From an uncultured Gammaproteobacteria bacterium (GTDB lineage: Bacteria > Pseudomonadota > Gammaproteobacteria > QNFN01), in assembly GCA_965364245.1 (NCBI GenBank), contig CBDTVS010000001.1, positions 1-34,819 of the forward strand: 34,819 nt of DNA, written 5' to 3'. A model generated the notes under the pieces. That model worked only from the letters and a program-made list of their open reading frames with translations, was not told where the DNA came from and did not search any database. Shown in pieces: positions 12,075 to 33,340 of this stretch. Both the position numbers and the translations under genes were made by a program. How positions within the stretch are numbered: position 1 is the first letter of the stretch; the number at the start of each line of letters is the position of its first letter.

Positions 12075-12476
12075 TCAGATTCCGTGATGCTGCGGATCTT
12101 CAGGCAGCGTCGGATCGACCGTATCGGCACCAGCATCCATACCGGCATCCAGGTTGTCGTCCGGCAAGACGTTCTCCGACTGCGCGTCAGGCGCATCGTC
12201 CAGCGCCGGGTCTGGTGGCATGACGTGCTCCACGGGTTGCACATTGGCCGGGTCCACCCCCGCGGCGACGAGGTAGTCGTCGAGCGGGGAGGGGGGTGAC
12301 TTGTCAGCCGCGTCGGATGTCCCGGTCTGGTGCGTCGTGTCCGCAAACTGCATGTAATCGGCAACGGCGTCGCCCGGGTCGGACCCAGAGTCGGTTGCAC
12401 CTGCCTGATCGTCGAACGCGGTCTCGTGCGCACCCTGGGAGTTGTCATCCACGGGTGGTGTCAGATCGCCCACGGC
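12075..12476 (-). pseudogene. Orphan, diverged copy of the giant adhesin's C-terminal 133-codon acidic tail (gene remnant or stand-alone tail ORF)
   Basis: Gapless hand alignment of 133 aa to the last 133 aa of the 17442..31907 product gives 76 identities. Conserved islands are AVGDL, DYMQFADTT, SPLxDYLVAAGV and DPQHHG[IV]-stop. An in-frame stop lies at 12531-12533, the only start is GTG at 12473, and I see no Shine-Dalgarno. Confidence 0.6.
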
Positions 12477-12642
12477 GCCGGCGTGTGAAGGTGGAGTCGC
12501 GACCCGCCAGCGAGCTGGGACTAGCCCTTGTCATACCCTCAGCAGACCACCCGAGCACAGGCAGTCAGGGCATCCTCACGCTCTAATGGCTTCACCCATC
12601 CCGCACGCTGACATGTGCCCCACCCGTGGCCGAGTAGCTCAC

Positions 12643-14544: not shown

Positions 14545-14773
14545 GGTCCGGAATCTCTTTAAATATCGGCCTTGAAAGGCTAGCAAAATTCGGCTTTCTG
14601 TTTTGATTTGCCTTATTACTTTCTGATGCAGATCAAGAGTCGCGGTAGCGATGACCTTGCGGTACGGAAGTCGCACTTGCAAGGTGAGATACTTGCCCTG
14701 TTCCGGCCAAACCACGAAGGTGCGTTTAACGACTGGCCATAGGCCGGACCTGAATTGGAATACTTAGCTGAAC

Positions 14774-17441: not shown

Positions 17442-20400
17442 TTAGACGCCATGATGTTGCGGATCGTCTAGCAGTGAAGGATCAGCCACATCGCCCCCCG
17501 TATCTAAACCCTCATCGATCATATCTTCGGGAGATGTTGGCGCCGGTTGGGTATCGGGGACATCGACAAGTGTAGGGTCGGGAGAAGTGACCGATTCGAC
17601 CTGCTGCAAATCAGTAGGCTCTACGCCTGCCGCCACGAGATAGTCGGCCAGCGGGGAAGGCACGGCCCCATCCGCTGCAGCTGGTGAGTCGCCCTGCTGA
17701 GTTGTGTCCGCGAACTGCATGTAATCGTCAACGGCGTGATCGGAATCCGTACCCGAGCCCGTGGCGACCATGGTGTCGTCGTAGCTGGTATCGTGCACTT
17801 CCTGGGAGGTGTCGTCCGTGGGTGGCGAGAGATCGCCCACGGCGCCGGCCTGGTCGTCTGGCGCCGGTTCGCCCGTGTAGGCGGTGAACATCATGTCCGG
17901 GTGTTCCACGCCGACGACGCTGCCGTCGTCTATCGGCAGCAGTTCGCCGACACTGGCCGATCGGCCGTCGGGCGCGATGGTCACCTCCTGCTGCGCAAGT
18001 GCGAAGTAACCGCTCGGCAACGACGCGATGGCCACCAGTGGCGTTGCCCCATCGGGCAGCGCATGGCCGGTCGCGTCGAGGGTCCAGTGGCCGTCGGCGT
18101 CGGCAGTGGTCGTGCCGAGCTCCAGGTGGCTTGAGTCCATGGTCTGCACCTTGACCGTCGCGCCCGGTGCCGAGCTGCCGCTGATCAGGATCGTCGGGTC
18201 GCTAGTCGTGAAATCGGCCTGTGTGCCGGTATCCGGTGTGATGCCGGTGATACGCACGCCAGGAGCAACCTCGATGATCGCCGTTGCATCGACAACGTGA
18301 CCTTTGCCGTCGGTCAGCTGGTAGCTGATTGCCCGTACGCCCTGCACGCCATGCGCGGGGGTGAAGACGAAGCCACCGTGCCCGTCGTCGGTGACCTGCC
18401 CGTAGCGCGAGGAGAAGGAACCCGCGACGACGCTGAGGGCGTCGCCATCGGCGTCGGACGCGCCGCTCAGCAGCTTGTCCATCGAAAGCTTTGTGCCAGT
18501 CTCCTCGACCGCGACACCAAGATTGACCAAGCTCGAGGCGACCGGTGCGTGGTCTGGGTGGAGGACGTCGACTGTCGCGAAGGTGTCGACCGTGTGGCGG
18601 CCGTCGGTGAGCTGGTAGGCGATGTGCACGTCGTCGCCGCTGAAGCCGGGCTCCGGGTGGAACACGAAGCCAGACTGGGCGTCGCCGGTGATGGTGCCGT
18701 GCGGCGAACTCAGCGACCCCGGAACCAGGGTCAACGCGTCGCCGTCAGCATCGGTCGCGCCGGCCAGCAGTGTGTTGATGTCGAGCGGTAGCGGCGCGCC
18801 GGCCTCCACCTCACCAAGGTCGGTGTCAGACGCCGCGATCGGTACCGTGTCGACGACGAAGCTAGGGGAGGTGAGGTGGGCGCCGGTGGTCTGGCCGCGC
18901 ATCTGTCCGCCGACGTTGAACACGATGTAGAGCTCCTTGCCCTGCAGGTTCAGCAGATCGTTTTCGTCGAATGTCACCTCGAAGTGGCCGTTCGCCTCCA
19001 TTTGCACCTGGCCGCCGCCGGCCATGCCGCTGCCCTCACTTACCATGACTGCGGAGGTCAGCTGCAGCTGGCTCAGCTCGGGGCCGGTCACCTGGCCAAC
19101 GGCAACCAGCCCATGGCCGAGACGCGCGGCATCGAGGTCGCCGAGATCGGCGATCGGGTGAGTGTGCGCGGTGTCATCGGCGTAGTAGTAGCTGACGCCC
19201 TCGATCGCCATACGCGCCGGCGGGGTGATATCGAGTGTGGCGTCGGCCGTGACGCTCGTGGTGCCGTCCGTGACCGTGACTTTCACCGGAATGTCGTCGT
19301 GGGTCACGCCAGAAACCGGGGTCAAGGCCCAGCTGTCACCCGTATGGGTGATCACGCCGTACTGCGGATCGACCCAGACGCTGCTGATCGCTAGCTGGTC
19401 GGCCGCGGTGTCGACGTCGGTCGCATGCACGGTCTGCAGCAGTTCTGCGCTGGTGAAGGTCCTGGTCAGACCCTGTTCGACCGTGCCGAGGTCGCCTGCC
19501 TGGACGTTTGGCGCATCGTCGGTCCCGGCGATAGTCACGTGAAGCTGGTGGGCGGTGCCGTCGGCGCTGTTTACTGTGATGGTGTCGGTGAGTGTTTCGC
19601 CTGCGGCGAGTGCGTCGACCGCCTGATGGCTGTCGTCGAGTCGGTAGACCCAGGTCCCACCGACACTGATCGAGAAGTGACCGTAACCCTGGTCGCTCTG
19701 CGCGTTGAACAGCGGTGTGAACAGCTCCTCGTTGCTGCCGTCGAGGTCGCTGATGCCGAGGCGGCCGGTCGCTAGTCCGCTGACGTCCTCGGTGACGGTC
19801 TCATGGCTGGTGTCTGTGATCACCGCCGCGTGGCTGACCGCGACGGTGTCGAAGTCGGCATGGGTCGCGACCCGCGCGCCCTGCGGATCGACGACGTCAT
19901 AGGTTAGACGCACCGGACCCTCGTAGCCCGCCTCGGGAGTGTAGAGGTAACCACCGGCCGGGTCGGCGGTGACGGTGCCGTGAGAGACCTCCAGGTTCTG
20001 CGCGCTGTGGCCCATCGAGAGCAGCGCGCGCGCCACCTGGGTCGAGGGGCCAGTGCTGACCGAGGCGAGGTTCTCGACTGAGAGCGCGTCACCGTCGGGG
20101 TCGGATGCATGCGCCAGGAGTTGCGCCTCGCTGATGTGCAGCGGCATCGCCGCGTCGGCATCGGTCAGCGTGACGGGAGCGCTGACCACCGGCGCGTCGT
20201 TGGTCCCGGTGACGGTTACGACCAGGTGCGCGGTAGCGGTGTTGCCCGCCGCGTCGGTGATCTCGTAGGTGAATCGTTCCTGGTGTGACTCGCCGGCCGC
20301 GAGCACCTGTGCGCGGGCGTCGAGGGTGTATGTATAGCCACCGTCGGCTTGCAGCGCGAGGGTGCCGTAGGCGCCCTGCTGGTCAGCGGTGGAGGTCACC

Positions 20401-23400
20401 GTCGCGCCGGCCTCGTCGTTAGCGAGCACGTTGCCGGTGACGGGACCTGCCTGGTCCTCGGTGGCCGAGGCGCGGTCGTCCACGGCGACCGCCTTGTCAT
20501 CGAGGGCCTGTAGTGCATCCGCCTGGCCGGGCACCTCCACCATCGCCTGGCCGGCGTGGTTGACCGCCACCTTCAGCGTGAGGTCGGCCAGATCACCGAA
20601 TGAGTCCATGTTCATGACGTGGACCGGGAAGCTCTCTTCGGCGGGCGAGCCCGCCGGAATCTGTGCGGCTTTGGATGGGTCGACCACGTAGTTCCAAGTG
20701 CCGGTCAGCTCGTCGACGGTCAGGGTGCCGTACTTACCCTCGACGACCGACTGATCGCTGCCCCGCTCGAGGTCGTTGTAGTCGGCGACGAAGTTGAAGG
20801 TGTCGTGTGCGTTGTCCGGGTCGACTGCCTGCAAGTGACCACCGACCACAGCTGCGGGGCCACGCGTGCTGGTGCCGGCCACATCAACTAGCTGCAGTGG
20901 GTCGTTGTGTCCATGGATGATCACGGTGAGATCACGGTTGGCGCCGTCCTCGGTACGTACCGTGAAACGCTCTTCGTAAGGGCCGCCGGCGAGCTCCTGG
21001 GCCCGGTCGGTGTCGAGGGCGTAGGTCCAGGTGCCCTGCGCGTCGATCTGGAAGTGACCGTAGTGGCCGTCCTGACCTTCAGCGACGAAGGCGGGTGGCG
21101 TGCCCTTGTTGGTGTCGATGTCGAAGTCGCCGGTCAGCGTCGACGTGCTGTCCTCGTCGGTCAGCGCCAGAGGCGATCCTGTGATGACCGTGTAGCTTGC
21201 CCCGCTCGGATCGACGGTCACGGTTGCGGGGGCGCTGGCCGCGCTGTCGCCGGTGACCGGGTCGGTAGCGACGGCGGCGACCTGCAGGTGGAGCACCCCG
21301 GAGTGGAGCACCTGGAGACCCTGTGCCTCAGCCTCGGTCACGGTCCACGAGCCGTCGGCGTTGCGCGTGCCGGACGAGAGCTCAGCCTGTTCCAGCCCGG
21401 TGATGCGCCAGGCGAGCTGCTGATTGGTGTCGGCGCTGTCGCCTACGGCGGCGGAGAGGGTGAGCGGCGTCTCGAAGCGCAGCAGCTCGGCCTCGACGCG
21501 CTCCACACCGACGTTGGTCGAGAACTGCGTCGTGCCGCCGGAACGCGTGGCTTCCGGGGCCGGTGCCTCGGCGTGCAGCGCGACGAAGGCGAATGGGTTC
21601 TGCGTCTCGATCGGTAGCGCCTGGACGGCGGCGCCCTGGCCGGTGGACTCGAGCACGCCGTGGTCGACCGGCGTGCCGTCGGCGGCGTAGGCGGTCCACG
21701 TGAGCTTGTCCCCATGGCCGCTGAGGCCGTTGAGCAGCAGCACGGCGCTCTTCGACACGCCCTGGAGTTCGATGACCAGCGTCTCGCCGGGCTGGTCGCC
21801 CTTGTCCTGGCCCTGGATGATCTGTGAGTCAATGGAGTCCTGCTCGGGTGCGGTCCCCTGGGCAACCGCCGGCCGCGCTGCATCTACGCCGAAGGTGTCA
21901 CCATGGGCGTTGGTGCCGAGACGGGCCGTTTCGAGCGCCGGCAGCTGCAGGTTGCCGTTCGCGTCCTCGAACGCTTCGCCGAAGCCGAGGGCGTGCATGA
22001 CGAAGCCGGTCGATTGCACGCTGCCAACAGTGGCGTGCGCCTCGGCGTGGCCGGCGGCAGCCTGCGTCGCCCCCGTGGAGACAGAGAGCGACGGTGCGTC
22101 CATGCTGCCGTGGATTGTGACCGTCAGGGTGTGCGTGGTGCCGTCGAGGCTGCGCACCTCGGCGGTTTCGACCAGCGTCTGGCCCGGACCGAGAGCCTGG
22201 ATGGCCGGGTTGTTCGCATCGGCCGTGTAGAACCAGTCGCCACCGGCGGTGATGCCGAAGGTGCCCAGGCCGCTGCTGCCGTCGATCTGCAGGTCATCGA
22301 CGAACCGGTCCTCTCCGCTATCGACGTCGCTTATCGCGAGCTTGCCGGCGAGGCTTAGGTGACCCATCCTGGTGTCGTCTTCGTCCACCGAGAGGGTATC
22401 GACACCCGCGATCTGCGCGACGTCGCCGGTGCCGGCAATGTTGATGGTGACCACCTGGGGCGTGCCGTCGACGCTGCCGACGGTGATGCGCTCCACAAGA
22501 TTCTGACCTTCGGCCAGTGACTGCACATCGGGATGGTCGTTGGCGAGCGTGAAGGTCCAGGCACCCTGCGCGTCGAGGGTGAAGTGGCCGTGCGGGGTGT
22601 CACGGTCGATCGGCACGAAGGCCGATTCGCCGACGTTAGGGTCGGACACCGACATTCGGCCAGAGGTGCTGATGTCAGTATCTTCTTTGACCACGCCAAC
22701 CGTGACGCCCCCGAAGATGGCCGGGGTGTTGCCGCCCTTGATCTGCAACACGATGTCGTGGCTGGTGCCGTCTGCGGTTTCCACCCGGAAGCTCTCCGGG
22801 ACCTGTTCGCTGTCGGCGAGCCGGGCAAGGGCCGGCTGGGAGGCGTCTGCCGAGTAGCTCCAATGGCCGTCGGGATCGATGTTCAGGAATCCGTAAGCGC
22901 CCTTGATTACCCCGGCCTGGAAGAATGACTCACCATGGTCCGGATCCATGATCATCAACTGGCCGTCAACATGCACTCTGCCGTCCTTGCTGCCCGCCAC
23001 CGAGCCCATGGCGTGGTCGATCCCGCCGATAAGCGGCACGTCGTTGGTGCCAACGATGGTGATCGTGAGCGACCCCTGAGCGGTGGCACCCTGGCTGTCA
23101 GTGACCATCACCGGCACTGCGAGGCGGGTGGTTTCGCTCTCCTGCAGGCGGGCGTAGGCTGGGTTGGAGGCGTCGAAGGTGTAGCTGCCATCGGCGTGCA
23201 GGGTCAGGCCGGGCACCGTAAAGGGTGTCTCAAAGCGCAACGTGTCGCCGGGGTCAGCGTCGCTCGCGCGCAGGTGACCGGAGACGGTGCTGCCTTCCTC
23301 GACCTGGGCGTAGTTGCCGGGATCTGACACCGGCGGCGGGGCGACGCTACCGGAGCCTGGCAGGGGCGGTGCGGGTGGTACTGCACCCGGGGCGAATACC

Positions 23401-26400
23401 GGTGCGTCGTTTTGTGCGGTGATGTCGAACGTGGCGTGGGCCTCGGTCGACAGGCTGCCATCGCTGACGGTGATACGTACCGGGATCGCGTCACCCGAGA
23501 CGTCCTTCTCGGGAACGAACAGCCAGCGACCGTTGGCCAGCGCGTGGAATTCCCCGTAGGCGCTGTCGATGTCGACGCCGGTGACGAGCAGGTTGTCGCC
23601 CTCCGCATCGGTGGCGCCCACCAGGCGCAGCAAGTCTTCCTGTGTGAAGCTGCGCGCCATGTCCTCGAGTGTGGCGCCGAGGTCGGCCGGGGTACCGGCC
23701 GTGGCCGTGACTACCGGGGCGTCGTTGGTGCCAGTCAGGGTGACCACCGCGACCTGCTCGACCGACTCGGCCGTCCCGGCGACCGTCTCGCCAAGGGAAT
23801 ACTTGATGAACACCTCTGCCTTGTCGCCTGCCGCGAGGTGGTCGAAACCTGCGGCCGAGGGATCGACATGCAGGGTGTGGCCATCGGCGTTCAGCGCGAA
23901 GCCGTCCGGCACCCGAGAAGAGAAGTGGACGCCGTCGGTCGAGTAGAGCAGGGGGCCAACACTCAGGCCATCGACGCCCTCGCGCAGGTCGATCGCGCCC
24001 GCCTGGCCGTCCTCTGTCAGGTCCTGCGTCAACTGACCCTGGTCGATGATCTCGGTGCCGGTGTGCAGCGTGTGGCCGAACTTGTCGGTCGTGGTCACCT
24101 TGACCTGCCAGTCGTGATCGCCGCTGACCCGGTCCATCTGGGTGTGGTCGAGGGTCGCCGTCCAGCCGCCGCCGCTGGCCGTGGTTGCCAGGTCGTAGAC
24201 GATCGACGCGTCGTTGCGATCGACCAGGTGCAGATGCACCTGGGTGCCGTCGGGCACGCCGGTGGCGGTGCCCTGCACCGTGACGTCACCGGAGGTGATT
24301 TCGTAAGCCTCGGCGGCCCATTTGCTGCCACCGCCTCCGGGGTGATTGGCCCCATGCACCGGGTGGCCACCGCGCGTTTCGATTCGCACCTCGAGTGCAT
24401 TGTCGATTCGGTCGATCGACAGCTCGGAATGGGTTTGGGTATCGATGCTGGTCTGTGCCGGGGCGCTGGCCGGCGACGGGTTGCCGGCGGCGTCGGTGGC
24501 GAACGCGCGGAAGGTGTGGTCGCCGTCCGCGAGGTCGGTGGCCGGCGTGAAGGTAAAGGTCCCGGCGGCGGTCGCCGTGGCGGTGCCGAGCACCTGGCCG
24601 TGGTCGGTGATGGTAACGATGGCGCCCGGCTCGGCGACGCCCTGCAGCGTCGGCGTGGCGTCGGGCAGGTTGGCGGCGAGCGTGCTGAGCGTCGGGCGCA
24701 CCGGCGCGACGTCGTCGACCACCTCGAGCTGGAAGTCCTGGTGAACGCTCGCGCCGTCGGTGTCGGTGGCCTCGATGCGCAGGTTGAGCGCGCCGACATT
24801 GGCGTGGCCAGGATCGCCGCTGAAGGTCTGCGTGTCGGGGTCGAAATGGAGCCATGTGGGCAGCGGGCTGCCGTCGGCGAGGGTTGCTGCGTAGGTCAGC
24901 GTGCCGCCCTCGGCGTCGGTGAAGGTGCCGGCCGGGACACGTGCCTGAAGGTGGTCGCCCTCGCCGATGCGGAAGTTGGGGATCGCGGTGGCGACCGGAC
25001 GGTCGTTGGTGCCCTGCACCGTCACGACGACCTCGTGGGTGGTGCCGTCGGTGGTCACCACGGTGATGCGGTCGGTTTCGCTTTCGCCCGTGCCGAGGGA
25101 CTGAACGGCGGGTCGGTCGTTGTCGAGTACGTACACCCAGCTGCCGTTGGCATCGAGGTGCAGGGTGCCGAAGGTTCCGGCGTAGTCGTCGGCGCGGAAG
25201 GCGTCCTCGCCGGTGTCGGCGTCGCTGACGGTCAGCGTGCCGCGCGCGGTCGTGGCGGTGTCCTCGGTGACGGTGGCGCTGTCCGTGCCGCCGATCACTG
25301 CACGGTCGTTCGTGCCGACGATGTCGACAGTGACGGTGTGCTCGGTCCCGTCGAGGCTGGTGACCTTGAACGGGATACTCAGCTGGTCGCCGTCGCCCAG
25401 GGCCTGGATCGCTGGGTCGTCGCCATGAGCCATGAAGGTCCAGCGCCCGCTGGGGGTGAGGACAAGCACGCTTTGGTGAGGGCCGTGGATGTTCTGCGCC
25501 GCGAATCCGGCTTCGTCGGTGTCGATGTCGGACACGCTGAGCTGGCCGTGCGCGACGAGGTCATTTGACAGGGACTGGCTGAAGTCGTCCTCGTCGATGG
25601 CGGCGTGGTCCACGCCAGCGATGTGCGCGGCATCGTTGGTGCCGTGGATGGTCAGCGTGAGTATCTGCTCGGTGCCGTCGACGGTCCGCACCGTGAGCTG
25701 CTCGGTGACGCGGTCGCCCTCGCCCAGCGCCTGGACCGAGGCCAGGCCGTTGTCGAGCGCGTAGTTCCAGTGGCCGGCGGCATCGATGTGGAGCGTGCCG
25801 TAGCTGCCCGCGACGTCGCCGGCTTGGAAGTGCGCCTCGTCGCGGTCGACGTCGGCGACCGTCAGCGTGCCTCGCGCGGTGGTTGCGCTCTCCTCGGTGA
25901 CGTCGCCGCTGCGGGCGCCGCCGATCACGGCCGCGTCGTTGGCGCCCTCGATGGTGACCGTCAGCGTCTGCCGGGTGCCGTCTAGCGTGGTCACAACCAG
26001 CTGGTCGGTCACCCGCTCGCCTGCCGCGAGCTGTTGGATCGCAGGGTTGCTGTTGTCGGCGATGTAGCTCCAGCGGCCGTCGCTGTCGATGGTGAAGTGG
26101 CCGTAGCCGCCGCTGCCCTCGACGTCGGTCTGCACCTGAAAGCTGCTCTCGCCGAAATCAACGTCACTGACATTTAGGCGACCGCTGTAGGCGAGCTGGC
26201 CCGGGTGGGCTTCGCGGTCCTCCCACAGAACTGCGCCGTCATCGCCGGTGACGGTCGGACGGTCGTCGGTCCCGTTGATATGCACGACGATGTCGTGGGC
26301 GGTGCCGTCGGCGGTGCGCACGGTGAGGGTGTCGGTGGTGAAGTCGCCGTCCCCGAGTTCCTGCACTTCGGGGTTGGAGTTGTCGAGGGTGTAGGTCCAG

Positions 26401-29400
26401 GCCCCGTCTGCGTCGATGTGCAGCGTGCCGAAGACCCCGGCGACGTCGCCGGCCTGGAAATGGGCCTCGCCGGTGTCGGCGTCGCTGACGCTCAGCGCAC
26501 CGGTCGCGGTAAGCGCGTTGTCCTCGGTTACGGCACCGCTGCTCGCGCCGCCGATCACCGGGGCGTCGTTGCTGCCGGCGATGATCACGGTGACGATCTG
26601 CGGGGTGCCGTCGGCGCTGCTGACCATCACCCGCTCGGTCAGAGTGGCGCCATTGCCGAGGCCCTGGACGGCGGGGTTGGTGACGTCGAGGGTGTAGGTC
26701 CAGGTACCGTCCTCGGCGAGCGTGAAATGGCCGTGATCGGTGTCGTGGTCGACGGCGTTGAAGTGGGCCTCGGTCGGATTGGGGTCGATGACGTCGAGCT
26801 TGCGGGTGAGGCTGTTGGCCTGGTCCTCGACAACCAGGCCGCGCGACACGCCGCCGATGATCGCGGTCGAGGTGGAACCGTAGATGTTCAGGTCGATGGC
26901 GTGTTCGGTGCCGTCGGCGGTGCGCACGACGAAGTGCTCGGCCGCCGAGGCCCCGGGGCCGAGCGAGGCGAGCGCGGTCTGGGTGGCGTCGGCGCTGTAA
27001 CTCCAGCGGCCGTCCGCGCCGATGCCGAGAGTGCCGTAGCTGCCCTGGAGCAGCATCGACTGGAAATGGGATTCACCGGTGTCGACGTCGAAGATGGTGA
27101 GCTCGCCGCCGAGATGCAGATGGCCGCCGTGGGCGTCGGCGGTCGAGGCGATCGCGGCGTCGACACCACCGATGATGGGCGCGTCGTTGGTGCCGGTGAG
27201 GTGAATCTCCAGATTGCGCTGGTCGCTGGCGCCGAACTGGTCGGTGACGACGATGGGGACGGTGATGTCGCGGGTCTCGCCGGCGGCGAGGCTCTGGTAG
27301 ATCGGGTGGCTGGCGTCGAAGGTGTAGCTGCCGTCGGGGTTGAGCGTCAGGCCGAGCACCGGGGCGCCGACGCGGAAGGTGAGCTGCGCACCGCTGTCGG
27401 GATCGCTGGCGTCGAGGGTGCCGCTGATGCGCGCGCCCTCGTCGACGCTGCGCGCCGTGATCGCCTGCAGCACCGGTGCGTCGTTGGTGCCCACCAGATT
27501 GACCCTGATCGTCGTGCGGTCGCTGGCACCCTGGTCATCGGTAACGCTGACGACAAAGGTCTCGGAAGCGTGCTCGCCGAGCGCGAGGGCGCGGGTCGCG
27601 TCGCGCGACGCATCGATCGTGTAGCTCCATGCGCCGGTCGCGGTATCGAGCACTAGGCTCCCATAGCTGCCGTCGGTGTGGTCGGCGGACCAGGTCAGCG
27701 TGGCCGAGATGTCCGTGTCGGATGCAACCAGCGTGCCCGCGAGCTGGCCGCTACCGCTGCCTATCTGCAGGTTGCCGCCAGCCGTAGTGCCGGCGATTTG
27801 CGGCAGGTCGTTGGTCCCGTTGATACGCACGACGATGTTGTGGGCGGTGCCGTCGGCGGTGCGCACGGTGAGGGTGTCGGTGGTGAAGTCGCCGTCCCCG
27901 AGTTCCTGCACTTCGGGGTTGGAGTTGTCGAGGGTGTAGGTCCAGGCCCCGTCTGCGTCGATGTGCAGCGTGCCGAAGACCCCGGCGACGTCGCCGGCCT
28001 GGAAATGGGCCTCGCCGGTGTCGGCGTCGCTGACGCTCAGCGCACCGGTCGCGGTAAGCGCGTTGTCCTCGGTTACGGCACCGCTGCTCGCGCCGCCGAT
28101 CACCGGGGCGTCGTTGCTGCCGGCGATGATCACGGTGACGATCTGCGGGGTGCCGTCGGCGCTGCTGACCATCACCCGCTCGGTCAGAGTGGCGCCATTG
28201 CCGAGGCCCTGGACGGCGGGGTTGGTGACGTCGAGGGTGTAGGTCCAGGTACCGTCCTCGGCGAGCGTGAAATGGCCGTGATCGGTGTCGTGGTCGACGG
28301 CGTTGAAGTGGGCCTCGGTCGGATTGGGGTCGATGACGTCGAGCTTGCGGGTGAGGCTGTTGGCCTGGTCCTCGACAACCAGGCCGCGCGACACGCCGCC
28401 GATGATCGCGGTCGAGGTGGAACCGTAGATGTTCAGGTCGATGGCGTGTTCGGTGCCGTCGGCGGTGCGCACGACGAAGTGCTCGGCCGCCGAGGCCCCG
28501 GGGCCGAGCGAGGCGAGCGCGGTCTGGGTGGCGTCGGCGCTGTAACTCCAGCGGCCGTCCGCGCCGATGCCGAGAGTGCCGTAGCTGCCCTGGAGCAGCA
28601 TCGACTGGAAATGGGATTCACCGGTGTCGACGTCGAAGATGGTGAGCTCGCCGCCGAGATGCAGATGGCCGCCGTGGGCGTCGGCGGTCGAGGCGATCGC
28701 GGCGTCGACACCACCGATGATGGGCGCGTCGTTGGTGCCGGTGAGGTGAATCTCCAGATTGCGCTGGTCGCTGGCGCCGAACTGGTCGGTGACGACGATG
28801 GGGACGGTGATGTCGCGGGTCTCGCCGGCGGCGAGGCTCTGGTAGATCGGGTGGCTGGCGTCGAAGGTGTAGCTGCCGTCGGGGTTGAGCGTCAGGCCGA
28901 GCACCGGGGCGCCGACGCGGAAGGTGAGCTGCGCACCGCTGTCGGGATCGCTGGCGTCGAGGGTGCCGCTGATGCGCGCGCCCTCGTCGACGCTGCGCGC
29001 CGTGATCGCCTGCAGCACCGGTGCGTCGTTGGTACCAGTGACCGACACGGTCAGGGTGGCGCTGGCGCTGTTCCCGGCAGCATCGATGATGGTGTAGTCG
29101 ACGCGGTCGGGCTGCGTCTCGCCCGCGGCGAGGTGCTGGGCGTTGGTGTTGAGCGTGTAGGTGAACGACCCGTCCGACTCGAGGTGGAAGGTGCCGTATT
29201 GCCCGGCGACCCCGCCGGCGGTGGTGAGCGTGGCGCGGGTGCCGTCGTTGGCGAGTAGGTTCCCGTGGGTCGTGCCCGCCTGGTCCTCGGTGGCGGTGAA
29301 GCTGTCGTCGGTGGCCACGAGCGTGGTGTCGATCGTGACCGCGAGGTCGGGTGAGGAGGTCGGTGGCAGGCCGTTCGGGGCGGTGGCCTGCGCGCTGAGT

Positions 29401-31907
29401 GTGTGGCCGCCCTCGGCGAGGTCCTGCCCCACGGCGAGACTGTAGCGGCCCTGATCGTCGGCGTAGGCCTCACCGATTCGGGTCGCGCCGTCGAAGATCT
29501 CGACCCGTGAGTACGGGATGCCGACAGTGCCCGTCAGGGTCGGCGTGGTGTCATGGGTGATTCCGTCCTGATCGGAGGCGCCAGTGTCGCTGCTGGCGTC
29601 GAGGGCCAGTGTGACCGCATTGGTGGGCTGAGCGCTGGCCGCACCCATGGGTCCACCCACGGCTCCGGCCGGTCCGGCCTGTCCCGCGGGACCTGCAGAG
29701 GGTGGCGTGGTGCCCTGCACCGGTGGCGCATCGACTCGCACGGTGACCTGTGGCGGCAAGCCGGGTCCGGCCGGCGCGGTGACGCTCCCGGTGGGGCTGA
29801 AGGTCAGGAATTTCGAGGTGACGCCGCCGTGCCCATCGTCGACCTGCACCTCGAAGGTGTCCTGGCCGCGGTAGGTGCCACTGGCCGGGTCGAGGGTCAT
29901 GCCCTGGACCGAATCGCTCGGCATGTAGACGTAGGCGCCGGTCTGCGGGTCGACACTGAGACTGCCGAACTGGCCGCTGCCGCTGCCGGTGACGCCGAAG
30001 GTGGGCGTGTCGCCGGTGTCCACGTCGGTCTGCTCAAGCAGCCCGTGGATCGCGTCGGTGGGGGTTACGCGCAGATCCGGTGCGTCGTTGGTGCCGAGGA
30101 TGTCGACAGTGATGACGTGTTCGGTGCCGTCGAGGCTGGTGACGCGGAAGGTTTCGGTCAGTTTCTCGCCGTCGCCGAGGGCCTGCACCGCAGGCAGGCT
30201 GTTGTCGAGGGTGTAGCTCCAGTCGCCACCGGGTTGCAGCACCAGGGTGCCGCCCAGCGACCCGTGCTGGGCCTGGTTCGCGAAGCCAGCCTCGCCGGAG
30301 TCGGCATCGTAGACGTCGAGGTGCCCAGCAGCACGCAGCTCGGCCCCTTGGAGCTGATCTTCGCGCACCGTGCCATGACCGACACCGCTGATCTGCGCGG
30401 CGTCGTTGGTGCCGGTGATCTGTAGAGTGATCTGCACCACGCTGCCGTCAGCGGAACGGACGGGAATCGTTTCCTGCAGCGGTACCCCGGCAGCGAGTGC
30501 CTGAACGTCCGGGTTGGCGTTGTCGAGGTCGTAGGTCCAGGTTCCCGACGAGTCGAGGTTCAGGGTGCCGTAATGGCCGGCGATCTGACCCGCTTGGAAC
30601 TGCGCTTCACCGGCATCGGCATCCTGGATTGAAAGGGCGCCGGAGGCGCGCGCCAGTGTGTCCTCGGTAACGGCGCCGGATGCGATCCCGCCGATCACCG
30701 GCGCGTCGCCGCTTCCGGTTACGGTGACCGCGACACGCACCGGCGTGCCGACGCCGTGCTCGTCGGTCACGGTCGCGGTGAAGATCTCCTGAACCTGCTG
30801 GCCGTCACGCAGCCCCTGCGTCGCGGGGCGTGTGTTGTCGAGGGTGTAGCTCCAGCGACCGCTGATGTCATCGAACACGAGGGTGCCGTAGGCGCCATCG
30901 AGGTGGTCCACGTTCCAGTGCAGCTGGGCTCCGGTATCGGGATCGGTGACCGCGATGCGCCCCTCCACGTGACTCGTCGAGGCGTCTTCGGTGACGAGGC
31001 CGGTGGTGACCGAGCCAGAGACCAGGCGTGGGGCGTCGTTGGTGCCCTCGAGCATGATCTTGATCGGAGTCGTGACGACGGTACCCGCCGTGTCAGTAGC
31101 GATGACCGTGAATGTCTCACTGACACGCTCACCTTCGGCAAGTGCCTGGACCCCAGGACTGTTGCCGTCGAGCACGAAACGCCAGGAGCCGTCGGTGCCA
31201 ACGGTGAAGTGACCGTAGGCGCCCTGACCCTGGTCGACCTGCCAATGAACGCCTCCGGCACCGCCGCTGGCGGCGAGGTGCCCCTGCGTGGCGCTTACGT
31301 CGTCCTCGCGGACCTTGCCGCCGTACTCGCCGGTGACGATCAGCGGATTGGTGGTCGGTTGGGAGCTGGCGCTGCCACCGGCAGCCGTGCCTCCCGTGGA
31401 GCCCGCGCTGGCGTGGCCATGTGTAGTGCCTGCAGCAGTGCCGCTAGCGCTGGCAGCCGCGTCCAGCGGGGCTTCCGATCCGCGTCGTTCGGCGGCAGCG
31501 CTAGCGGTCGGAATGATGGGGCCGGAGGCGTCGCCGCTCGGGGTGATCTCGAGTCCCGTGCCGAAGTCTGCGCCAGAGGCGGTATGGCCACCTCGGCCGC
31601 GGGTCGCGGTGGCGGACGCTGATACGGACGGACTACCGGCCTGGGCGCCGGCTGCGAGGTCGGAGTCACTCGCATTGGCGGCCGCGACGGACGTGTCCTT
31701 GAGCGCCCCTCTGGCAGTGCCAGGAGCCGCGCTGGTGGGTGCAAACGTCTCGCCGTTGGGTTGCGGCTCGGCGCCCGGTTCCGACGCCAGGTCCTCGTCC
31801 CAACCGATCTCGTTCCCTGCGGCGATTTCGCTACGCGACTTTTCCTCAGGCCGTTGGTCGGGCCGGTCCTTGGCTGACTCGGGTTTCTTGCGGCGTTCGT
31901 CACTCAT
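17442..31907 (-). CDS. Giant (4,821 aa) repeat-rich surface/secreted adhesin-like protein, presumed substrate of the adjacent type I secretion system
   Basis: A single uninterrupted 14,466-nt ORF. About two dozen ~100-aa VCBS-type modules each end in G(T/S)NDAP (for example GxYGTLxxxxDGxWxYxLDNxxPxVQAL...TGTNDAP). Interspersed are Ig-like modules (TPTLTGT...), a dystroglycan/cadherin-like module (LPTWLHFDPDTQTFSG) and cadherin-like DADGDAL modules. The N-terminal ~190 aa are low-complexity Ala/Ser/Gly/Thr. It lies directly downstream of the ABC and HlyD genes on the same strand. Confidence 0.95.
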   Translation of the reverse strand: MSDERRKKPESAKDRPDQRPEEKSRSEIAAGNEIGWDEDLASEPGAEPQPNGETFAPTSAAPGTARGALKDTSVAAANASDSDLAAGAQAGSPSVSASATATRGRGGHTASGADFGTGLEITPSGDASGPIIPTASAAAERRGSEAPLDAAASASGTAAGTTHGHASAGSTGGTAAGGSASSQPTTNPLIVTGEYGGKVREDDVSATQGHLAASGGAGGVHWQVDQGQGAYGHFTVGTDGSWRFVLDGNSPGVQALAEGERVSETFTVIATDTAGTVVTTPIKIMLEGTNDAPRLVSGSVTTGLVTEDASTSHVEGRIAVTDPDTGAQLHWNVDHLDGAYGTLVFDDISGRWSYTLDNTRPATQGLRDGQQVQEIFTATVTDEHGVGTPVRVAVTVTGSGDAPVIGGIASGAVTEDTLARASGALSIQDADAGEAQFQAGQIAGHYGTLNLDSSGTWTYDLDNANPDVQALAAGVPLQETIPVRSADGSVVQITLQITGTNDAAQISGVGHGTVREDQLQGAELRAAGHLDVYDADSGEAGFANQAQHGSLGGTLVLQPGGDWSYTLDNSLPAVQALGDGEKLTETFRVTSLDGTEHVITVDILGTNDAPDLRVTPTDAIHGLLEQTDVDTGDTPTFGVTGSGSGQFGSLSVDPQTGAYVYMPSDSVQGMTLDPASGTYRGQDTFEVQVDDGHGGVTSKFLTFSPTGSVTAPAGPGLPPQVTVRVDAPPVQGTTPPSAGPAGQAGPAGAVGGPMGAASAQPTNAVTLALDASSDTGASDQDGITHDTTPTLTGTVGIPYSRVEIFDGATRIGEAYADDQGRYSLAVGQDLAEGGHTLSAQATAPNGLPPTSSPDLAVTIDTTLVATDDSFTATEDQAGTTHGNLLANDGTRATLTTAGGVAGQYGTFHLESDGSFTYTLNTNAQHLAAGETQPDRVDYTIIDAAGNSASATLTVSVTGTNDAPVLQAITARSVDEGARISGTLDASDPDSGAQLTFRVGAPVLGLTLNPDGSYTFDASHPIYQSLAAGETRDITVPIVVTDQFGASDQRNLEIHLTGTNDAPIIGGVDAAIASTADAHGGHLHLGGELTIFDVDTGESHFQSMLLQGSYGTLGIGADGRWSYSADATQTALASLGPGASAAEHFVVRTADGTEHAIDLNIYGSTSTAIIGGVSRGLVVEDQANSLTRKLDVIDPNPTEAHFNAVDHDTDHGHFTLAEDGTWTYTLDVTNPAVQGLGNGATLTERVMVSSADGTPQIVTVIIAGSNDAPVIGGASSGAVTEDNALTATGALSVSDADTGEAHFQAGDVAGVFGTLHIDADGAWTYTLDNSNPEVQELGDGDFTTDTLTVRTADGTAHNIVVRINGTNDLPQIAGTTAGGNLQIGSGSGQLAGTLVASDTDISATLTWSADHTDGSYGSLVLDTATGAWSYTIDASRDATRALALGEHASETFVVSVTDDQGASDRTTIRVNLVGTNDAPVLQAITARSVDEGARISGTLDASDPDSGAQLTFRVGAPVLGLTLNPDGSYTFDASHPIYQSLAAGETRDITVPIVVTDQFGASDQRNLEIHLTGTNDAPIIGGVDAAIASTADAHGGHLHLGGELTIFDVDTGESHFQSMLLQGSYGTLGIGADGRWSYSADATQTALASLGPGASAAEHFVVRTADGTEHAIDLNIYGSTSTAIIGGVSRGLVVEDQANSLTRKLDVIDPNPTEAHFNAVDHDTDHGHFTLAEDGTWTYTLDVTNPAVQGLGNGATLTERVMVSSADGTPQIVTVIIAGSNDAPVIGGASSGAVTEDNALTATGALSVSDADTGEAHFQAGDVAGVFGTLHIDADGAWTYTLDNSNPEVQELGDGDFTTDTLTVRTADGTAHDIVVHINGTDDRPTVTGDDGAVLWEDREAHPGQLAYSGRLNVSDVDFGESSFQVQTDVEGSGGYGHFTIDSDGRWSYIADNSNPAIQQLAAGERVTDQLVVTTLDGTRQTLTVTIEGANDAAVIGGARSGDVTEESATTARGTLTVADVDRDEAHFQAGDVAGSYGTLHIDAAGHWNYALDNGLASVQALGEGDRVTEQLTVRTVDGTEQILTLTIHGTNDAAHIAGVDHAAIDEDDFSQSLSNDLVAHGQLSVSDIDTDEAGFAAQNIHGPHQSVLVLTPSGRWTFMAHGDDPAIQALGDGDQLSIPFKVTSLDGTEHTVTVDIVGTNDRAVIGGTDSATVTEDTATTARGTLTVSDADTGEDAFRADDYAGTFGTLHLDANGSWVYVLDNDRPAVQSLGTGESETDRITVVTTDGTTHEVVVTVQGTNDRPVATAIPNFRIGEGDHLQARVPAGTFTDAEGGTLTYAATLADGSPLPTWLHFDPDTQTFSGDPGHANVGALNLRIEATDTDGASVHQDFQLEVVDDVAPVRPTLSTLAANLPDATPTLQGVAEPGAIVTITDHGQVLGTATATAAGTFTFTPATDLADGDHTFRAFATDAAGNPSPASAPAQTSIDTQTHSELSIDRIDNALEVRIETRGGHPVHGANHPGGGGSKWAAEAYEITSGDVTVQGTATGVPDGTQVHLHLVDRNDASIVYDLATTASGGGWTATLDHTQMDRVSGDHDWQVKVTTTDKFGHTLHTGTEIIDQGQLTQDLTEDGQAGAIDLREGVDGLSVGPLLYSTDGVHFSSRVPDGFALNADGHTLHVDPSAAGFDHLAAGDKAEVFIKYSLGETVAGTAESVEQVAVVTLTGTNDAPVVTATAGTPADLGATLEDMARSFTQEDLLRLVGATDAEGDNLLVTGVDIDSAYGEFHALANGRWLFVPEKDVSGDAIPVRITVSDGSLSTEAHATFDITAQNDAPVFAPGAVPPAPPLPGSGSVAPPPVSDPGNYAQVEEGSTVSGHLRASDADPGDTLRFETPFTVPGLTLHADGSYTFDASNPAYARLQESETTRLAVPVMVTDSQGATAQGSLTITIVGTNDVPLIGGIDHAMGSVAGSKDGRVHVDGQLMIMDPDHGESFFQAGVIKGAYGFLNIDPDGHWSYSADASQPALARLADSEQVPESFRVETADGTSHDIVLQIKGGNTPAIFGGVTVGVVKEDTDISTSGRMSVSDPNVGESAFVPIDRDTPHGHFTLDAQGAWTFTLANDHPDVQSLAEGQNLVERITVGSVDGTPQVVTINIAGTGDVAQIAGVDTLSVDEDDTRMGHLSLAGKLAISDVDSGEDRFVDDLQIDGSSGLGTFGITAGGDWFYTADANNPAIQALGPGQTLVETAEVRSLDGTTHTLTVTIHGSMDAPSLSVSTGATQAAAGHAEAHATVGSVQSTGFVMHALGFGEAFEDANGNLQLPALETARLGTNAHGDTFGVDAARPAVAQGTAPEQDSIDSQIIQGQDKGDQPGETLVIELQGVSKSAVLLLNGLSGHGDKLTWTAYAADGTPVDHGVLESTGQGAAVQALPIETQNPFAFVALHAEAPAPEATRSGGTTQFSTNVGVERVEAELLRFETPLTLSAAVGDSADTNQQLAWRITGLEQAELSSGTRNADGSWTVTEAEAQGLQVLHSGVLHLQVAAVATDPVTGDSAASAPATVTVDPSGASYTVITGSPLALTDEDSTSTLTGDFDIDTNKGTPPAFVAEGQDGHYGHFQIDAQGTWTYALDTDRAQELAGGPYEERFTVRTEDGANRDLTVIIHGHNDPLQLVDVAGTSTRGPAAVVGGHLQAVDPDNAHDTFNFVADYNDLERGSDQSVVEGKYGTLTVDELTGTWNYVVDPSKAAQIPAGSPAEESFPVHVMNMDSFGDLADLTLKVAVNHAGQAMVEVPGQADALQALDDKAVAVDDRASATEDQAGPVTGNVLANDEAGATVTSTADQQGAYGTLALQADGGYTYTLDARAQVLAAGESHQERFTYEITDAAGNTATAHLVVTVTGTNDAPVVSAPVTLTDADAAMPLHISEAQLLAHASDPDGDALSVENLASVSTGPSTQVARALLSMGHSAQNLEVSHGTVTADPAGGYLYTPEAGYEGPVRLTYDVVDPQGARVATHADFDTVAVSHAAVITDTSHETVTEDVSGLATGRLGISDLDGSNEELFTPLFNAQSDQGYGHFSISVGGTWVYRLDDSHQAVDALAAGETLTDTITVNSADGTAHQLHVTIAGTDDAPNVQAGDLGTVEQGLTRTFTSAELLQTVHATDVDTAADQLAISSVWVDPQYGVITHTGDSWALTPVSGVTHDDIPVKVTVTDGTTSVTADATLDITPPARMAIEGVSYYYADDTAHTHPIADLGDLDAARLGHGLVAVGQVTGPELSQLQLTSAVMVSEGSGMAGGGQVQMEANGHFEVTFDENDLLNLQGKELYIVFNVGGQMRGQTTGAHLTSPSFVVDTVPIAASDTDLGEVEAGAPLPLDINTLLAGATDADGDALTLVPGSLSSPHGTITGDAQSGFVFHPEPGFSGDDVHIAYQLTDGRHTVDTFATVDVLHPDHAPVASSLVNLGVAVEETGTKLSMDKLLSGASDADGDALSVVAGSFSSRYGQVTDDGHGGFVFTPAHGVQGVRAISYQLTDGKGHVVDATAIIEVAPGVRITGITPDTGTQADFTTSDPTILISGSSAPGATVKVQTMDSSHLELGTTTADADGHWTLDATGHALPDGATPLVAIASLPSGYFALAQQEVTIAPDGRSASVGELLPIDDGSVVGVEHPDMMFTAYTGEPAPDDQAGAVGDLSPPTDDTSQEVHDTSYDDTMVATGSGTDSDHAVDDYMQFADTTQQGDSPAAADGAVPSPLADYLVAAGVEPTDLQQVESVTSPDPTLVDVPDTQPAPTSPEDMIDEGLDTGGDVADPSLLDDPQHHGV
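17445..17843 (-). other. C-terminal 133-aa acidic Pro/Asp/Thr-rich tail module of the giant adhesin (candidate secretion signal), paralogous to 12078..12476
   Basis: Homology with the orphan copy begins at AVGDL and runs to the stop. GC is about 55-62% in hand-counted samples, against 68-75% just upstream in the same gene. Confidence 0.7.
26295..27488. repeat. Copy A of a perfect 1,194-bp direct repeat inside the giant adhesin gene (codons 1474-1871)
   Basis: Offset is exactly 1,545 bp to copy B. Flanking mismatches lie at 26294/27839 and 27489/29034. ORF-track peptides in several frames are letter-identical between the copies (26416..26697 = 27961..28242; 26639..26833 = 28184..28378; 26888..27169 = 28433..28714). 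Confidence 0.95.
27840..29033. repeat. Copy B of the perfect 1,194-bp direct repeat (codons 959-1356)
   Basis: As for copy A. The repeat is in frame (398 codons, four ~100-aa modules). The copies are separated by a unique 351-bp (117-codon) module at 27489-27839. Confidence 0.95.
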
Positions 31908-33324: not shown

Positions 33325-33340
33325 TGAAGGTACTCGTCTA

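What the first reader, a model, noticed from the sequence alone, without database searches (positions are those of the whole stretch)
17445..17843. Non-RTX, strongly acidic conserved tail where a T1SS secretion signal is expected
Reading the last ~500 aa by eye, I found no GGxGxD nonapeptide (RTX) repeats. Instead, after a final Ig-like module, the protein ends in a Pro/Asp/Thr/Glu-rich segment with three conserved islands and a fixed terminus, DPQHHG[VI]. The islands are conserved in the diverged orphan copy. That argues they are under selection and are not just low complexity. The tail is a candidate for a distinct class of C-terminal T1SS signal or docking module matched to the unusual ABC transporter upstream.
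Basis: partly seen in the sequence, partly recalled or inferred. Interest (0 to 1): 0.6.

Follow-up and report, generated by a model that had tools for sequence, protein, structure and literature searches.

The report
Rare non-RTX export tail of adhesin
The last 100-139 residues of a 4,821-residue surface adhesin form a rare, conserved, acidic tail that no protein-family library describes; it most likely is the export signal for the type I secretion genes next door, which makes it a new variant of a known theme and not a new kind of system.

Summary
The 4,821-aa VCBS/cadherin-like adhesin (17442-31907, minus strand) has no GGxGxD motif and no RTX or TIGR03661 profile hit. After a last Big_13 Ig domain it ends in a K/R-free, Asp/Pro/Ala/Thr-rich tail (17445-17861). 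That tail aligns without gaps at 57% identity to an orphan copy at 12078-12494 (dN/dS 0.20).

The tail belongs to a very rare family. There are about 14 sequence clusters among 1.8-5.8 billion proteins, and none among 185,579 species genomes. The domain always lies at the extreme C-terminus. Its motifs are LxDYLQFA, SPLDDYLAAAGVDP, LPPTEVLxD, DDAALAAxP and an almost invariant QHHGV-COOH end. It has no Pfam, NCBIfam or PDB match. AlphaFold2 predicts disorder with two short helices at the DYL motifs.

An ABC transporter and a HlyD gene lie directly upstream. A TolC gene follows a tail-bearing adhesin in one metagenome contig, and a half TolC gene follows an orphan tail in another.

My best reading (about 0.6) is an undescribed non-RTX type I secretion targeting domain. 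Non-RTX T1SS adhesins are already known (SiiE, group-II DDxP proteins), so novelty is moderate. Tail-only orphans recur in four contexts. A codon-usage break inside the main tail suggests 3'-end exchange. Nothing was tested experimentally.

The parts
17445..17861 (-). C-terminal tail module of the adhesin (aa 4683-4821, 139 aa). Acidic (23% D+E), no K/R, predicted mostly disordered.
   Evidence: Gapless paralog alignment, composition, AF2 mean pLDDT 57.5, no Pfam/NCBIfam/PDB match.
17802..17849 (-). Island 1, AGAVGDLSPPTDDTSQ. Shared with the window's orphan only, not conserved across the family. Contains a 20-nt run identical in both copies.
17700..17735 (-). Motif 1, AVDDYMQFADTT (family consensus [AP][LV]xDYLQ[FY]A[DA]). 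Predicted helix at tail residues 40-51. Contains a 15-nt run identical to the orphan.
17616..17660 (-). Motif 2, PSPLADYLVAAGVEP (family SPLDDYLAAAGVDP). Y, L, A, G are invariant. Predicted helix at tail residues 70-77, the highest pLDDT block (75).
17562..17585 (-). Motif 3, SPDPTLVD (family LPPTEVL[ILV]D). P and L are invariant.
17445..17465 (-). Extreme C-terminus DPQHHGV, followed by the stop codon at 17442-17444. HHG is invariant and Q and V nearly invariant in all 14 family members.
17442..31907 (-). Giant adhesin gene, 4,821 aa. It has 27-28 VCBS/Cadherin_4 units plus Big_9, Cadherin_5, Big_13 and He_PIG domains. No RTX, no signal peptide, no TM segment.
31984..33429 (-). HlyD-family type I secretion adaptor (TIGR01843, 308 bits, above the 208.65-bit cut-off).
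33341..34819 (-). C-terminal 492 aa of a T1SS-type ABC permease/ATPase, cut by the contig end. Its best model is LssB-type TIGR03375 (252 bits, below cut-off). The NBD lacks LSGGQ and has LLLLDD in Walker B.
12078..12494 (-). Orphan paralog of the tail, 139 aa of homology. The open frame starts only at GTG 12473 (132 aa) and has no Shine-Dalgarno sequence or promoter match. It most likely is the displaced former 3' end of the adhesin gene.
   Evidence: The same layout appears in an independent assembly.

Best explanation
The tail is an undescribed, lineage-restricted family of non-RTX C-terminal targeting domain for type I secretion.

Inferred mechanism:
1. The adhesin is made without a Sec signal.
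2. Its disordered, acidic, Lys/Arg-free last ~100 residues are recognised at the cytoplasmic face by the ABC/HlyD complex encoded just upstream. These residues carry two short amphipathic DY(L/M) helices, an LPPTEVL-type motif and a fixed QHHGV carboxy-end.
3. The protein is threaded C-terminus first through a TolC-type channel.
4. Outside the cell, Ca2+-dependent folding of the VCBS/cadherin/Ig modules takes the ratchet role that RTX beta-rolls play in classical substrates, as in SiiE.
5. The uncleaved tail ends up at the distal tip of the fibre.

Shown here: the anatomy, the conservation, the extreme C-terminal position, the absence of RTX, and the gene neighbourhood.

Inferred only: recognition by the transporter and secretion itself.
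For: 1. Context: a HlyD gene (TIGR01843, 308 bits) and a T1SS-type ABC gene lie directly upstream on the same strand, with 76 nt between HlyD and the adhesin.
2. The adhesin has no signal peptide, TM segment or barrel. Its highest 15-aa Kyte-Doolittle score in the first 135 aa is 0.54. Of the known routes, only a C-terminal T1SS signal fits.
3. All 14 family members carry the domain at the very C-terminus. Wherever upstream sequence is available, it is VCBS/cadherin adhesin (L003, L004, L006, P0008-P0010, P0013/14).
4. Two further links to T1SS parts exist. A full TolC gene (TIGR01844, 293 bits) lies 1.4 kb downstream of the tail in L004. A half TolC gene follows the orphan tail in L008-L013.
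5. The tail is under purifying selection: dN/dS 0.20, and 2 synonymous and 0 non-synonymous differences to a 99.7%-identical second assembly.
6. Its physical character fits T1SS signals. It is disordered with two short helices. Across the family's last 100 residues, K+R is 0.5% or less and D is 15-16%. PMC8861453 reports K/R depletion, D/L/T/V enrichment and a terminal [VAI] for RTX-substrate C-termini.
7. There is precedent for a non-RTX giant Ig-repeat adhesin with a C-terminal T1SS signal: SiiE (PMC12607715).
Against:
- Pro (11-16%) and His (5-13%) are enriched in the tail, whereas Pro is depleted in RTX-type signals. The penultimate residue is Gly, not the [FLI] reported in PMC8861453.
- The conserved core (~100 aa) is longer than the 48-60 aa that suffice in HlyA, so part of it may do something else.
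- The neighbouring ABC has a degenerate ATPase site, with no LSGGQ and Asp for the catalytic Glu. It might be inactive unless paired with a second ABC.
- Only one locus, this window, shows the tail together with an ABC and a HlyD gene.
- Tail-only ORFs exist without any adhesin. A pure secretion signal would not be expected to persist in that form unless these ORFs are recent remnants.
Confidence: 0.6

Rival explanations
1. The conserved module is mainly a distal-tip functional domain, for example binding a metal, mineral or ligand through the acidic stretch and the terminal His-His, or docking a partner protein. Only a few terminal residues, or none of the conserved motifs, would act as the secretion signal.
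For: - T1SS adhesins exit C-terminus first, so the tail sits at the far end of the fibre (established for LapA/MpIBP-type adhesins, own knowledge).
- The conserved core is about 100 aa, longer than typical minimal signals.
- HHG is invariant at the carboxy-end and D makes up 15-16% of the tail.
- The SPLxDYLxxA motif is repeated, and one copy is internal in P0010.
Against: - AF2 gives no fold: mean pLDDT 57.5, pTM 0.18.
- No known binding-domain profile matches.
- The strongest conservation at the very last residues is typical of signals that a transporter reads from the free carboxy-end, as with the terminal motif of PrtG-type proteases (own knowledge).
Confidence: 0.15
2. The tail is chiefly an exchangeable 3' cassette. 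Its conserved islands would serve as homology for recombination that swaps adhesin ends together with downstream genes, leaving displaced ends behind. This resembles icd/e14 or the displaced C-terminal ends of polymorphic toxins.
For: - GC3 drops inside the main tail from about 0.80 (codons 1-50) to about 0.53 (codons 51-139), p about 0.002.
- That lower value resembles the cyclase (0.66) and sulfatase (0.69) genes lying between the two copies, and not the adhesin body (0.856, minimum 0.65 in any 40-codon window).
- Identical nucleotide runs of 20 and 15 nt lie at islands 1 and 2.
- Tail-only orphans occur in four unrelated contexts with no adhesin-body remains upstream.
- Orphans group with their own lineage and not with each other.
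Against: - Protein-level constraint (dN/dS 0.20; third-position identity only 42%) shows that selection acts on the peptide and not on the DNA.
- The insert carries no integrase or immunity-like partner gene.
- This idea explains where the orphans come from but not what the tail does, so it complements the main explanation.
Confidence: 0.12
3. The tail domain is also a free-standing small acidic protein (about 100-135 aa), and the orphans are functional genes. They could be small T1SS cargo, or competitors or regulators of adhesin export.
For: - Four orphans have fully intact frames and stop codons.
- The window orphan's branch (0.25) is shorter than the main tail's (0.53).
- P0004 is identical on 15 contigs from many samples.
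Against: - The window orphan has no ATG, Shine-Dalgarno sequence or promoter match, and homology runs upstream of its only start codon.
- The N-terminal part of the L005 ORF looks like translated non-coding DNA.
- The L008 orphan lies in a decayed locus with a half TolC gene.
- A low dN/dS is equally expected if two functional alleles diverged before a recent displacement.
Confidence: 0.08
4. The tail is a low-complexity spacer of no specific function, and its resemblance to the orphan reflects a recent duplication.
For: The composition is biased (D, P, A, T make up 50%) and the AF2 confidence is low.
Against: - Synonymous sites are saturated (dS about 1.5) while dN/dS is 0.20.
- Position-specific motifs are conserved at 30-40% overall identity in independent metagenomes, with profile E-values down to 1e-12 (2-sequence profile) and 3e-42 (10-sequence profile).
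Confidence: 0.02

Closest known systems
SiiE of Salmonella enterica (SPI-4 T1SS substrate)
   Same: It is a giant (5,559 aa) adhesin built of Ca2+-binding Ig-type repeats. It has no RTX nonapeptides and a C-terminal secretion signal, and it is encoded beside its ABC/MFP/OMP genes. Its ABC has a C39-like domain (PMC12607715, PMC5466336).
   Different: The repeat families differ (BIg in SiiE; VCBS/Cadherin_4/Big_9 here). I did not test the SiiE C-terminus for similarity to this tail. SiiE has a coiled-coil N-terminal retention region, which is not seen here.
RTX adhesins of the LapA / MpIBP / FrhA type
   Same: - These are giant repeat adhesins with C-terminus-first T1SS export.
- This assembly also encodes a LapG-like C93 protease (C215) and a LapD-like receptor (C104).
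- The adhesin N-terminus carries two TAAG motifs.
   Different: The defining GGxGxD beta-roll repeats ahead of the signal are absent. No retention-module model hits. The LapG and LapD genes are on other contigs, so linkage is unproven.
[quoted passage not shown]
   Same: They are large modular proteins whose modules end in DDxP-like junctions; here these are mostly G[TS]NDAP, about 20 junctions. Most are encoded next to T1SS genes, they have no RTX in the C region, and they lack recognisable retention modules.
   Different: None of this tail's motifs occur in that paper's text-held supplement. No relative of the tail exists in 185,579 species genomes. This C region is therefore a different sequence family.
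TIGR03661, T1SS C-terminal target domain of the VC_A0849 subclass, used with LssB-type ABC transporters (own knowledge of the model's description)
   Same: It is a conserved C-terminal domain of roughly 100 aa that marks substrates of a T1SS subfamily. The ABC here scores best with the LssB-type model.
   Different: That domain follows RTX repeats. Neither the adhesin nor any of the 14 tails hits it.
Extreme C-terminal motif of PrtG/AprA-type metalloproteases (acidic residue followed by hydrophobic residues, required for secretion; own knowledge)
   Same: A fixed motif at the free carboxy-end is conserved within one substrate family.
   Different: The motif here is D-P-Q-H-H-G-V, which is polar and His-rich with only the last residue hydrophobic. 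Those substrates have RTX repeats and an ABC without an N-terminal extra domain.
icd / e14 (gene 3' end supplied by inserted DNA, old end left as a pseudogene)
   Same: The main-plus-orphan layout, and a codon-usage break that places foreign-like sequence in the working 3' end together with downstream genes.
   Different: The 5.4-kb insert contains no integrase or phage genes, only a Cache/HAMP/PAS adenylate/guanylate cyclase-domain protein and an alkyl sulfatase.

Membership tests
RTX proteins / RTX adhesins | Tandem GGxGxDxUx nonapeptides (PF00353) in the C-terminal part | tested here: not met
   0 matches to GG.G.D in 4,821 aa. No HemolysinCabind hit at E<=0.1.
RTX proteins / RTX adhesins | Encoded with T1SS ABC and membrane-fusion genes | tested here: met
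   HlyD TIGR01843 at 308 bits, and a T1SS-type ABC directly upstream.
T1SS substrates in general | Uncleaved C-terminal signal that is necessary and sufficient for export | not testable with these tools
   Needs reporter fusion and truncation experiments.
T1SS substrates in general | No N-terminal Sec/Tat signal, acidic pI | tested here: met
   Highest 15-aa hydropathy in the first 135 aa is 0.54. The pI is 4.15 overall and 4.05 for the tail.
TIGR03661 VC_A0849-type T1SS C-terminal target domain | Match to the NCBIfam model | tested here: not met
   No hit for the whole protein at E<=0.1 or for the 14 tails at E<=10.
LapA-like two-step adhesins | N-terminal retention module | tested here: not met
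   No retention-module model among the NCBIfam hits. The first ~190 aa are low-complexity sequence.
LapA-like two-step adhesins | LapG (C93 protease) and LapD in the genome, and a di-alanine (T/A/P)AA(G/V) site | tested here: inconclusive
   PF06035 hit on C215 (52 bits) and PF16448 hit on C104 (141 bits). TAAG at aa 157-160 and 174-177. Linkage to this locus is unproven.
SiiE-like non-RTX Ca2+-binding Ig adhesins | Giant array of Ig-type Ca2+-binding repeats, no RTX, adjacent T1SS | tested here: met
   This shows likeness of design, not homology of the repeats.
SiiE-like non-RTX Ca2+-binding Ig adhesins | Sequence similarity of the C-terminal signal region | not tested
   No SiiE sequence was fetched.
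Sorting-signal tails (PEP-CTERM, GlyGly-CTERM, LPXTG, T9SS CTD) | Motif followed by a hydrophobic helix and basic residues, or a beta-sandwich CTD | tested here: not met
   No hydrophobic segment and no K/R in the tail. No such profile hit.
Polymorphic-toxin C-terminal cassettes (CdiA-CT/Rhs-CT with orphans) | Variable toxin domain after a conserved junction, each followed by an immunity gene | tested here: not met
   The two tails are homologous throughout and have no toxin profile. The genes that follow are a cyclase and a pilin-like gene, not small immunity genes.

The most novel reading that the evidence does not exclude
The tail is a portable export cassette. The adhesin's secretion end would be a discrete ~100-139-aa unit that is repeatedly exchanged by recombination within its own conserved islands, together with downstream cargo genes. 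The displaced tail-only ORFs would stay intact because they are still made and exported as small acidic proteins through the same, possibly heterodimeric, ABC system. That would add a tier of modular evolution and small cargo to type I secretion that has not been described.
Probability: 0.12. Interest if true: 0.6.

Novelty: new variant of a known kind. Interest (0 to 1): 0.4.

Why it matters
T1SS signals are poorly defined and are usually studied in RTX proteins. This tail offers sharply conserved, position-specific motifs (two DYL helices and a fixed QHHGV carboxy-end) in a substrate without RTX repeats. That makes it a clean handle for asking what a T1SS ABC/HlyD complex actually reads, and whether recognition co-varies with a divergent transporter. 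It also gives a profile for annotating otherwise unrecognised T1SS adhesin ends in metagenomes. The family is very rare and environmental, so its practical reach is modest.

Tried and rejected
- **Known tail families:** I looked for RTX, TIGR03661 or any other known family in the tail and found none. PDB sequence search gave only chance hits.
- **Relatives in genomes:** none in 60 related genomes. None in 185,579 species genomes by motif scan followed by tblastn.
- **Relatives in metagenomes:** only 2 contigs.
- **Long proteins carrying the tail:** only the window's own protein at 2,650-8,400 aa, and none at 740-2,355 aa. Co-occurrence with ABC/HlyD therefore could not be extended beyond this window.
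- **Orthologues of the transporter:** the best match was 32% identity or less for HlyD in 12 relatives' genomes and for the ABC in 300 class-level genomes.
- **Joining contig C215 to the window end:** rejected. C215 carries the N-terminal part of an LssB-type ABC. The two fragments overlap by about 20 homologous positions but differ in sequence, so they are two genes.
- **Reciprocal GC3 gradient in the orphan (Campbell-type integration):** the trend is in the right direction but not significant, p 0.3-0.7.
- **Promoter and terminator scans:** uninformative around both tails.
- **Exact look-up of HlyD in other assemblies:** not on record.
- **The 122-kb contig behind L005:** not held.
- **Literature and supplement search for the motifs:** nothing relevant.
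- **Fold search:** not run, because the AF2 model is of low confidence.
Full report
**What is there**

The window is a whole 34.8-kb contig of a 2.09-Mb, 396-contig, about 75%-complete metagenome-assembled genome. On the minus strand, three genes follow one another:
- a 5'-truncated T1SS-type ABC permease/ATPase (33341-34819);
- a HlyD-family adaptor (31984-33429; TIGR01843, 308 bits);
- 76 nt further on, a 4,821-aa ORF (17442-31907).

The giant protein is built of 27-28 VCBS/Cadherin_4 units together with Big_9, Cadherin_5, Big_13 and He_PIG domains. It has no hydrophobic N-terminal signal and no TM segment, and its pI is 4.15.

**Checking the observation**

- GG.G.D occurs nowhere in the protein.
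- Pfam reports no HemolysinCabind hit, and NCBIfam reports no T1SS C-terminal target model.
- In the last 500 aa the final recognised domains are Cadherin_5 (aa 4453-4547) and Big_13 (aa 4558-4627). The last 194 aa match nothing.
- The final 139 aa (17445-17861) align without a single gap to 12078-12494 on the same strand, at 57% amino-acid and 65% nucleotide identity. Nucleotide homology stops at the borders of the tail.
- Identity by codon position is 77/75/42%. dN/dS is 0.20 with dS about 1.5. The resemblance is therefore old and constrained at the protein level, not a low-complexity artefact.
- The tail is Asp/Pro/Ala/Thr-rich with no Lys or Arg. It is not notably Glu-rich.
- An independent ENA assembly that is 99.7% identical shows the same main-plus-orphan layout, so this is not a misassembly. 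It differs from the main tail by two synonymous changes and from the orphan by none.

**The family**

A profile of the two tails was scored against 1.84 billion representative proteins. It found only eight other clusters, and every one matched up to its last residue. A word-indexed search of 5.8 billion proteins added a few more.

The 14-sequence alignment shows five motifs:
- [AP][LV]xDYLQ[FY]A
- SPLDDYLAAAGVDP
- LPPTEVL[ILV]D
- DDAALAAxP
- [DE]DPQHHGV at the carboxy-end, with HHG invariant

Island 1 of the window (AGAVGDL...) is specific to this lineage.

No member hits Pfam or NCBIfam, and PDB sequences give only chance matches. No relative was found in 60 related genomes or in 185,579 species genomes. 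Only two JGI/GenBank metagenome contigs came up. The motifs do not occur in the searchable literature in any relevant context.

AlphaFold2 on the family alignment gives a mean pLDDT of 57.5. The only elements are two helices, at tail residues 40-51 and 70-77, which are the two DY(L/M) motifs. Across the family's last 100 residues, K+R is 0.5% or less, D is 15-16%, A 15-18%, P 11-16% and H 5-13%.

**Context elsewhere**

Wherever upstream sequence exists, the tail ends a VCBS/cadherin-type adhesin that runs off the contig (L003, L004, L006, L014, L015, L042, L043).
- In L004, a full TolC gene (TIGR01844, 293 bits) lies 1.4 kb downstream.
- In L008-L013, a tail-only ORF is followed by a PhD/ParE pair and the N-terminal half of a TolC gene. 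This looks like a decayed T1SS-adhesin locus.
- No contig other than the window reaches the genes upstream of an adhesin. The proposed pairing with an ABC/HlyD type therefore cannot be counted.
- Searches for long tail-bearing proteins found none.
- HlyD has no relative above 31% identity in 12 relatives' genomes, and the ABC none above 32% in 300 class-level genomes. The whole system is divergent.

**Most likely function**

The adhesin has no other export signal. It lies in an ABC-HlyD-substrate arrangement, and it carries a conserved, disordered, acidic, K/R-free domain at the free carboxy-end. The best explanation is that this domain holds the T1SS targeting signal. The VCBS/cadherin/Ig modules would provide the Ca2+-driven extracellular folding that RTX repeats provide elsewhere, as described for SiiE (PMC12607715, PMC5466336).

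K/R depletion, D/T/V/L enrichment and a terminal V/I agree with the C-terminal composition reported for RTX substrates. That same paper notes that 25 of 99 validated T1SS substrates have no RTX motif (PMC8861453).

Several points count against a simple reading:
- Pro and His are enriched.
- The penultimate residue is Gly.
- The conserved core (about 100 aa) is longer than the 48-60 aa signal of HlyA.
- The neighbouring ABC lacks LSGGQ and has Asp for the Walker-B Glu.

I put this explanation at about 0.6. Nothing here shows secretion.

**The orphan copies**

Besides the window's orphan, tail-only ORFs that are not cut by contig ends occur in three other contexts:
- L005, on a 122-kb contig between an alcohol dehydrogenase gene and a globin gene;
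- L007, after a Sel1 gene;
- L008-L013.

None has adhesin-body remains upstream.

In the family tree the window's two copies are sisters (100/100 support). Orphans do not group together, so they arose independently. The orphan's branch (0.25) is shorter than the main tail's (0.53).

Codon usage points to an exchange of the 3' end:
- GC3 falls within the main tail from about 0.80 to about 0.53 (p about 0.002).
- The low value is near that of the cyclase (0.66) and sulfatase (0.69) genes lying between the copies, and far from the adhesin body (0.856).
- The switch lies near a 15-nt run in DYMQF that is identical in both copies.

Together this fits an exchange that brought in foreign-like sequence plus two genes and left the former end behind. 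Under that reading the low dN/dS reflects two working adhesin ends that diverged before the event. This still supports constraint on the tail, but it is not evidence that the orphan works. The orphan has no ATG, Shine-Dalgarno sequence or promoter match.

**Comparison with known systems**

In design, the adhesin works like SiiE and like the group-II (RTX-less) DDxP proteins (PMC7730722).

It shares LapG-like and LapD-like genes (on other contigs) and TAAG motifs with LapA-type adhesins. It fails their RTX and retention-module criteria.

It is not a member of the TIGR03661 target-domain family. It is not a PEP-CTERM, LPXTG or T9SS sorting tail, and it is not a polymorphic-toxin end.

**Verdict**

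This is a real, rare, undescribed C-terminal domain family that most likely serves type I secretion. I class it as a new variant of a known kind and score interest at 0.4. The recurring orphans and the break inside the tail are the less expected parts.

Noticed in passing
genome contig C215:2132-4129 (not in the window): The contig end encodes the first ~254 aa of an LssB-type ABC: a C39-like domain (PF03412, 23.6 bits) plus TM helices 1-2. Divergently upstream lies a LapG-like C93 protease (PF06035, 52 bits). This ABC fragment overlaps the window's ABC fragment by about 20 homologous positions but differs in sequence. The assembly therefore holds two T1SS-type ABC genes, possibly a tandem or heterodimeric pair in which the window's copy is the degenerate half.
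   Followed up: partly
window 33449-33700 (-), ABC nucleotide-binding domain: Walker A (GPNGAGKST), the Q-loop and the H-loop are present. The LSGGQ signature is absent (RHDRANRRA...) and Walker B reads LLLLDD. A 30%-identical homologue from another genome keeps VSGSFQ and MLFDE.
   Followed up: partly
genome contig C104:1821-2192 (not in the window): A LapD_MoxY_N domain (PF16448, 141 bits) lies in a 649-aa frame. The genome therefore has a LapD-like c-di-GMP receptor as well as the LapG-like protease. The window's adhesin is the only giant adhesin or VCBS protein found in the assembly.
   Followed up: partly
window 31428-31439 and 31377-31388 (-): Two TAAG motifs (aa 157-160 and 174-177) lie in the low-complexity N-terminal 190 aa of the adhesin. 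They have the form of LapG cleavage sites, but no retention-module profile precedes them.
   Followed up: no
window 17445-17861 against 12643-17221: GC3 breaks inside the main tail: about 0.80 for codons 1-50 and about 0.53 for codons 51-139 (p about 0.002). The lower value matches the cyclase (0.66) and alkyl sulfatase (0.69) genes between the two tail copies. The adhesin body has 0.856 and core genes of the contig 0.88-0.93.
   Followed up: partly
L005:6305-6604; L007:1635-2033; L008:1002-1367 and L010:2257-2622: Tail-only ORFs occur in three other metagenomic contexts with no adhesin body upstream. The L008-L013 copy is identical on 15 contigs. It sits between a PGAP1-like hydrolase gene and a PhD/ParE pair followed by the N-terminal half of a TolC gene.
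   Followed up: partly
P0010 (L043:2-1291): This adhesin fragment carries an internal partial tail (ASPLDDYLQFA ... DDAALYIQAL) about 200 aa before its complete terminal tail. It looks as if an older end has been internalised.
   Followed up: no
window 6490-6729: Of the 50 differences to the 99.7%-identical ENA assembly (L034), 26 cluster in 240 nt of the alpha/beta-hydrolase gene. This looks like a short recombination tract.
   Followed up: no
L004:1266-2531 and L015:608-2451; window 4165-4956: A lipoprotein-like gene and a META-domain gene follow the tail-bearing adhesin in two metagenome loci. In L004 they lie before the TolC gene. The window has a YscW/META lipoprotein gene 13 kb away.
   Followed up: no
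L042:982-2213 and L005:16215-16466: IS3-family transposase genes lie close to tail-bearing or orphan-tail loci.
   Followed up: no
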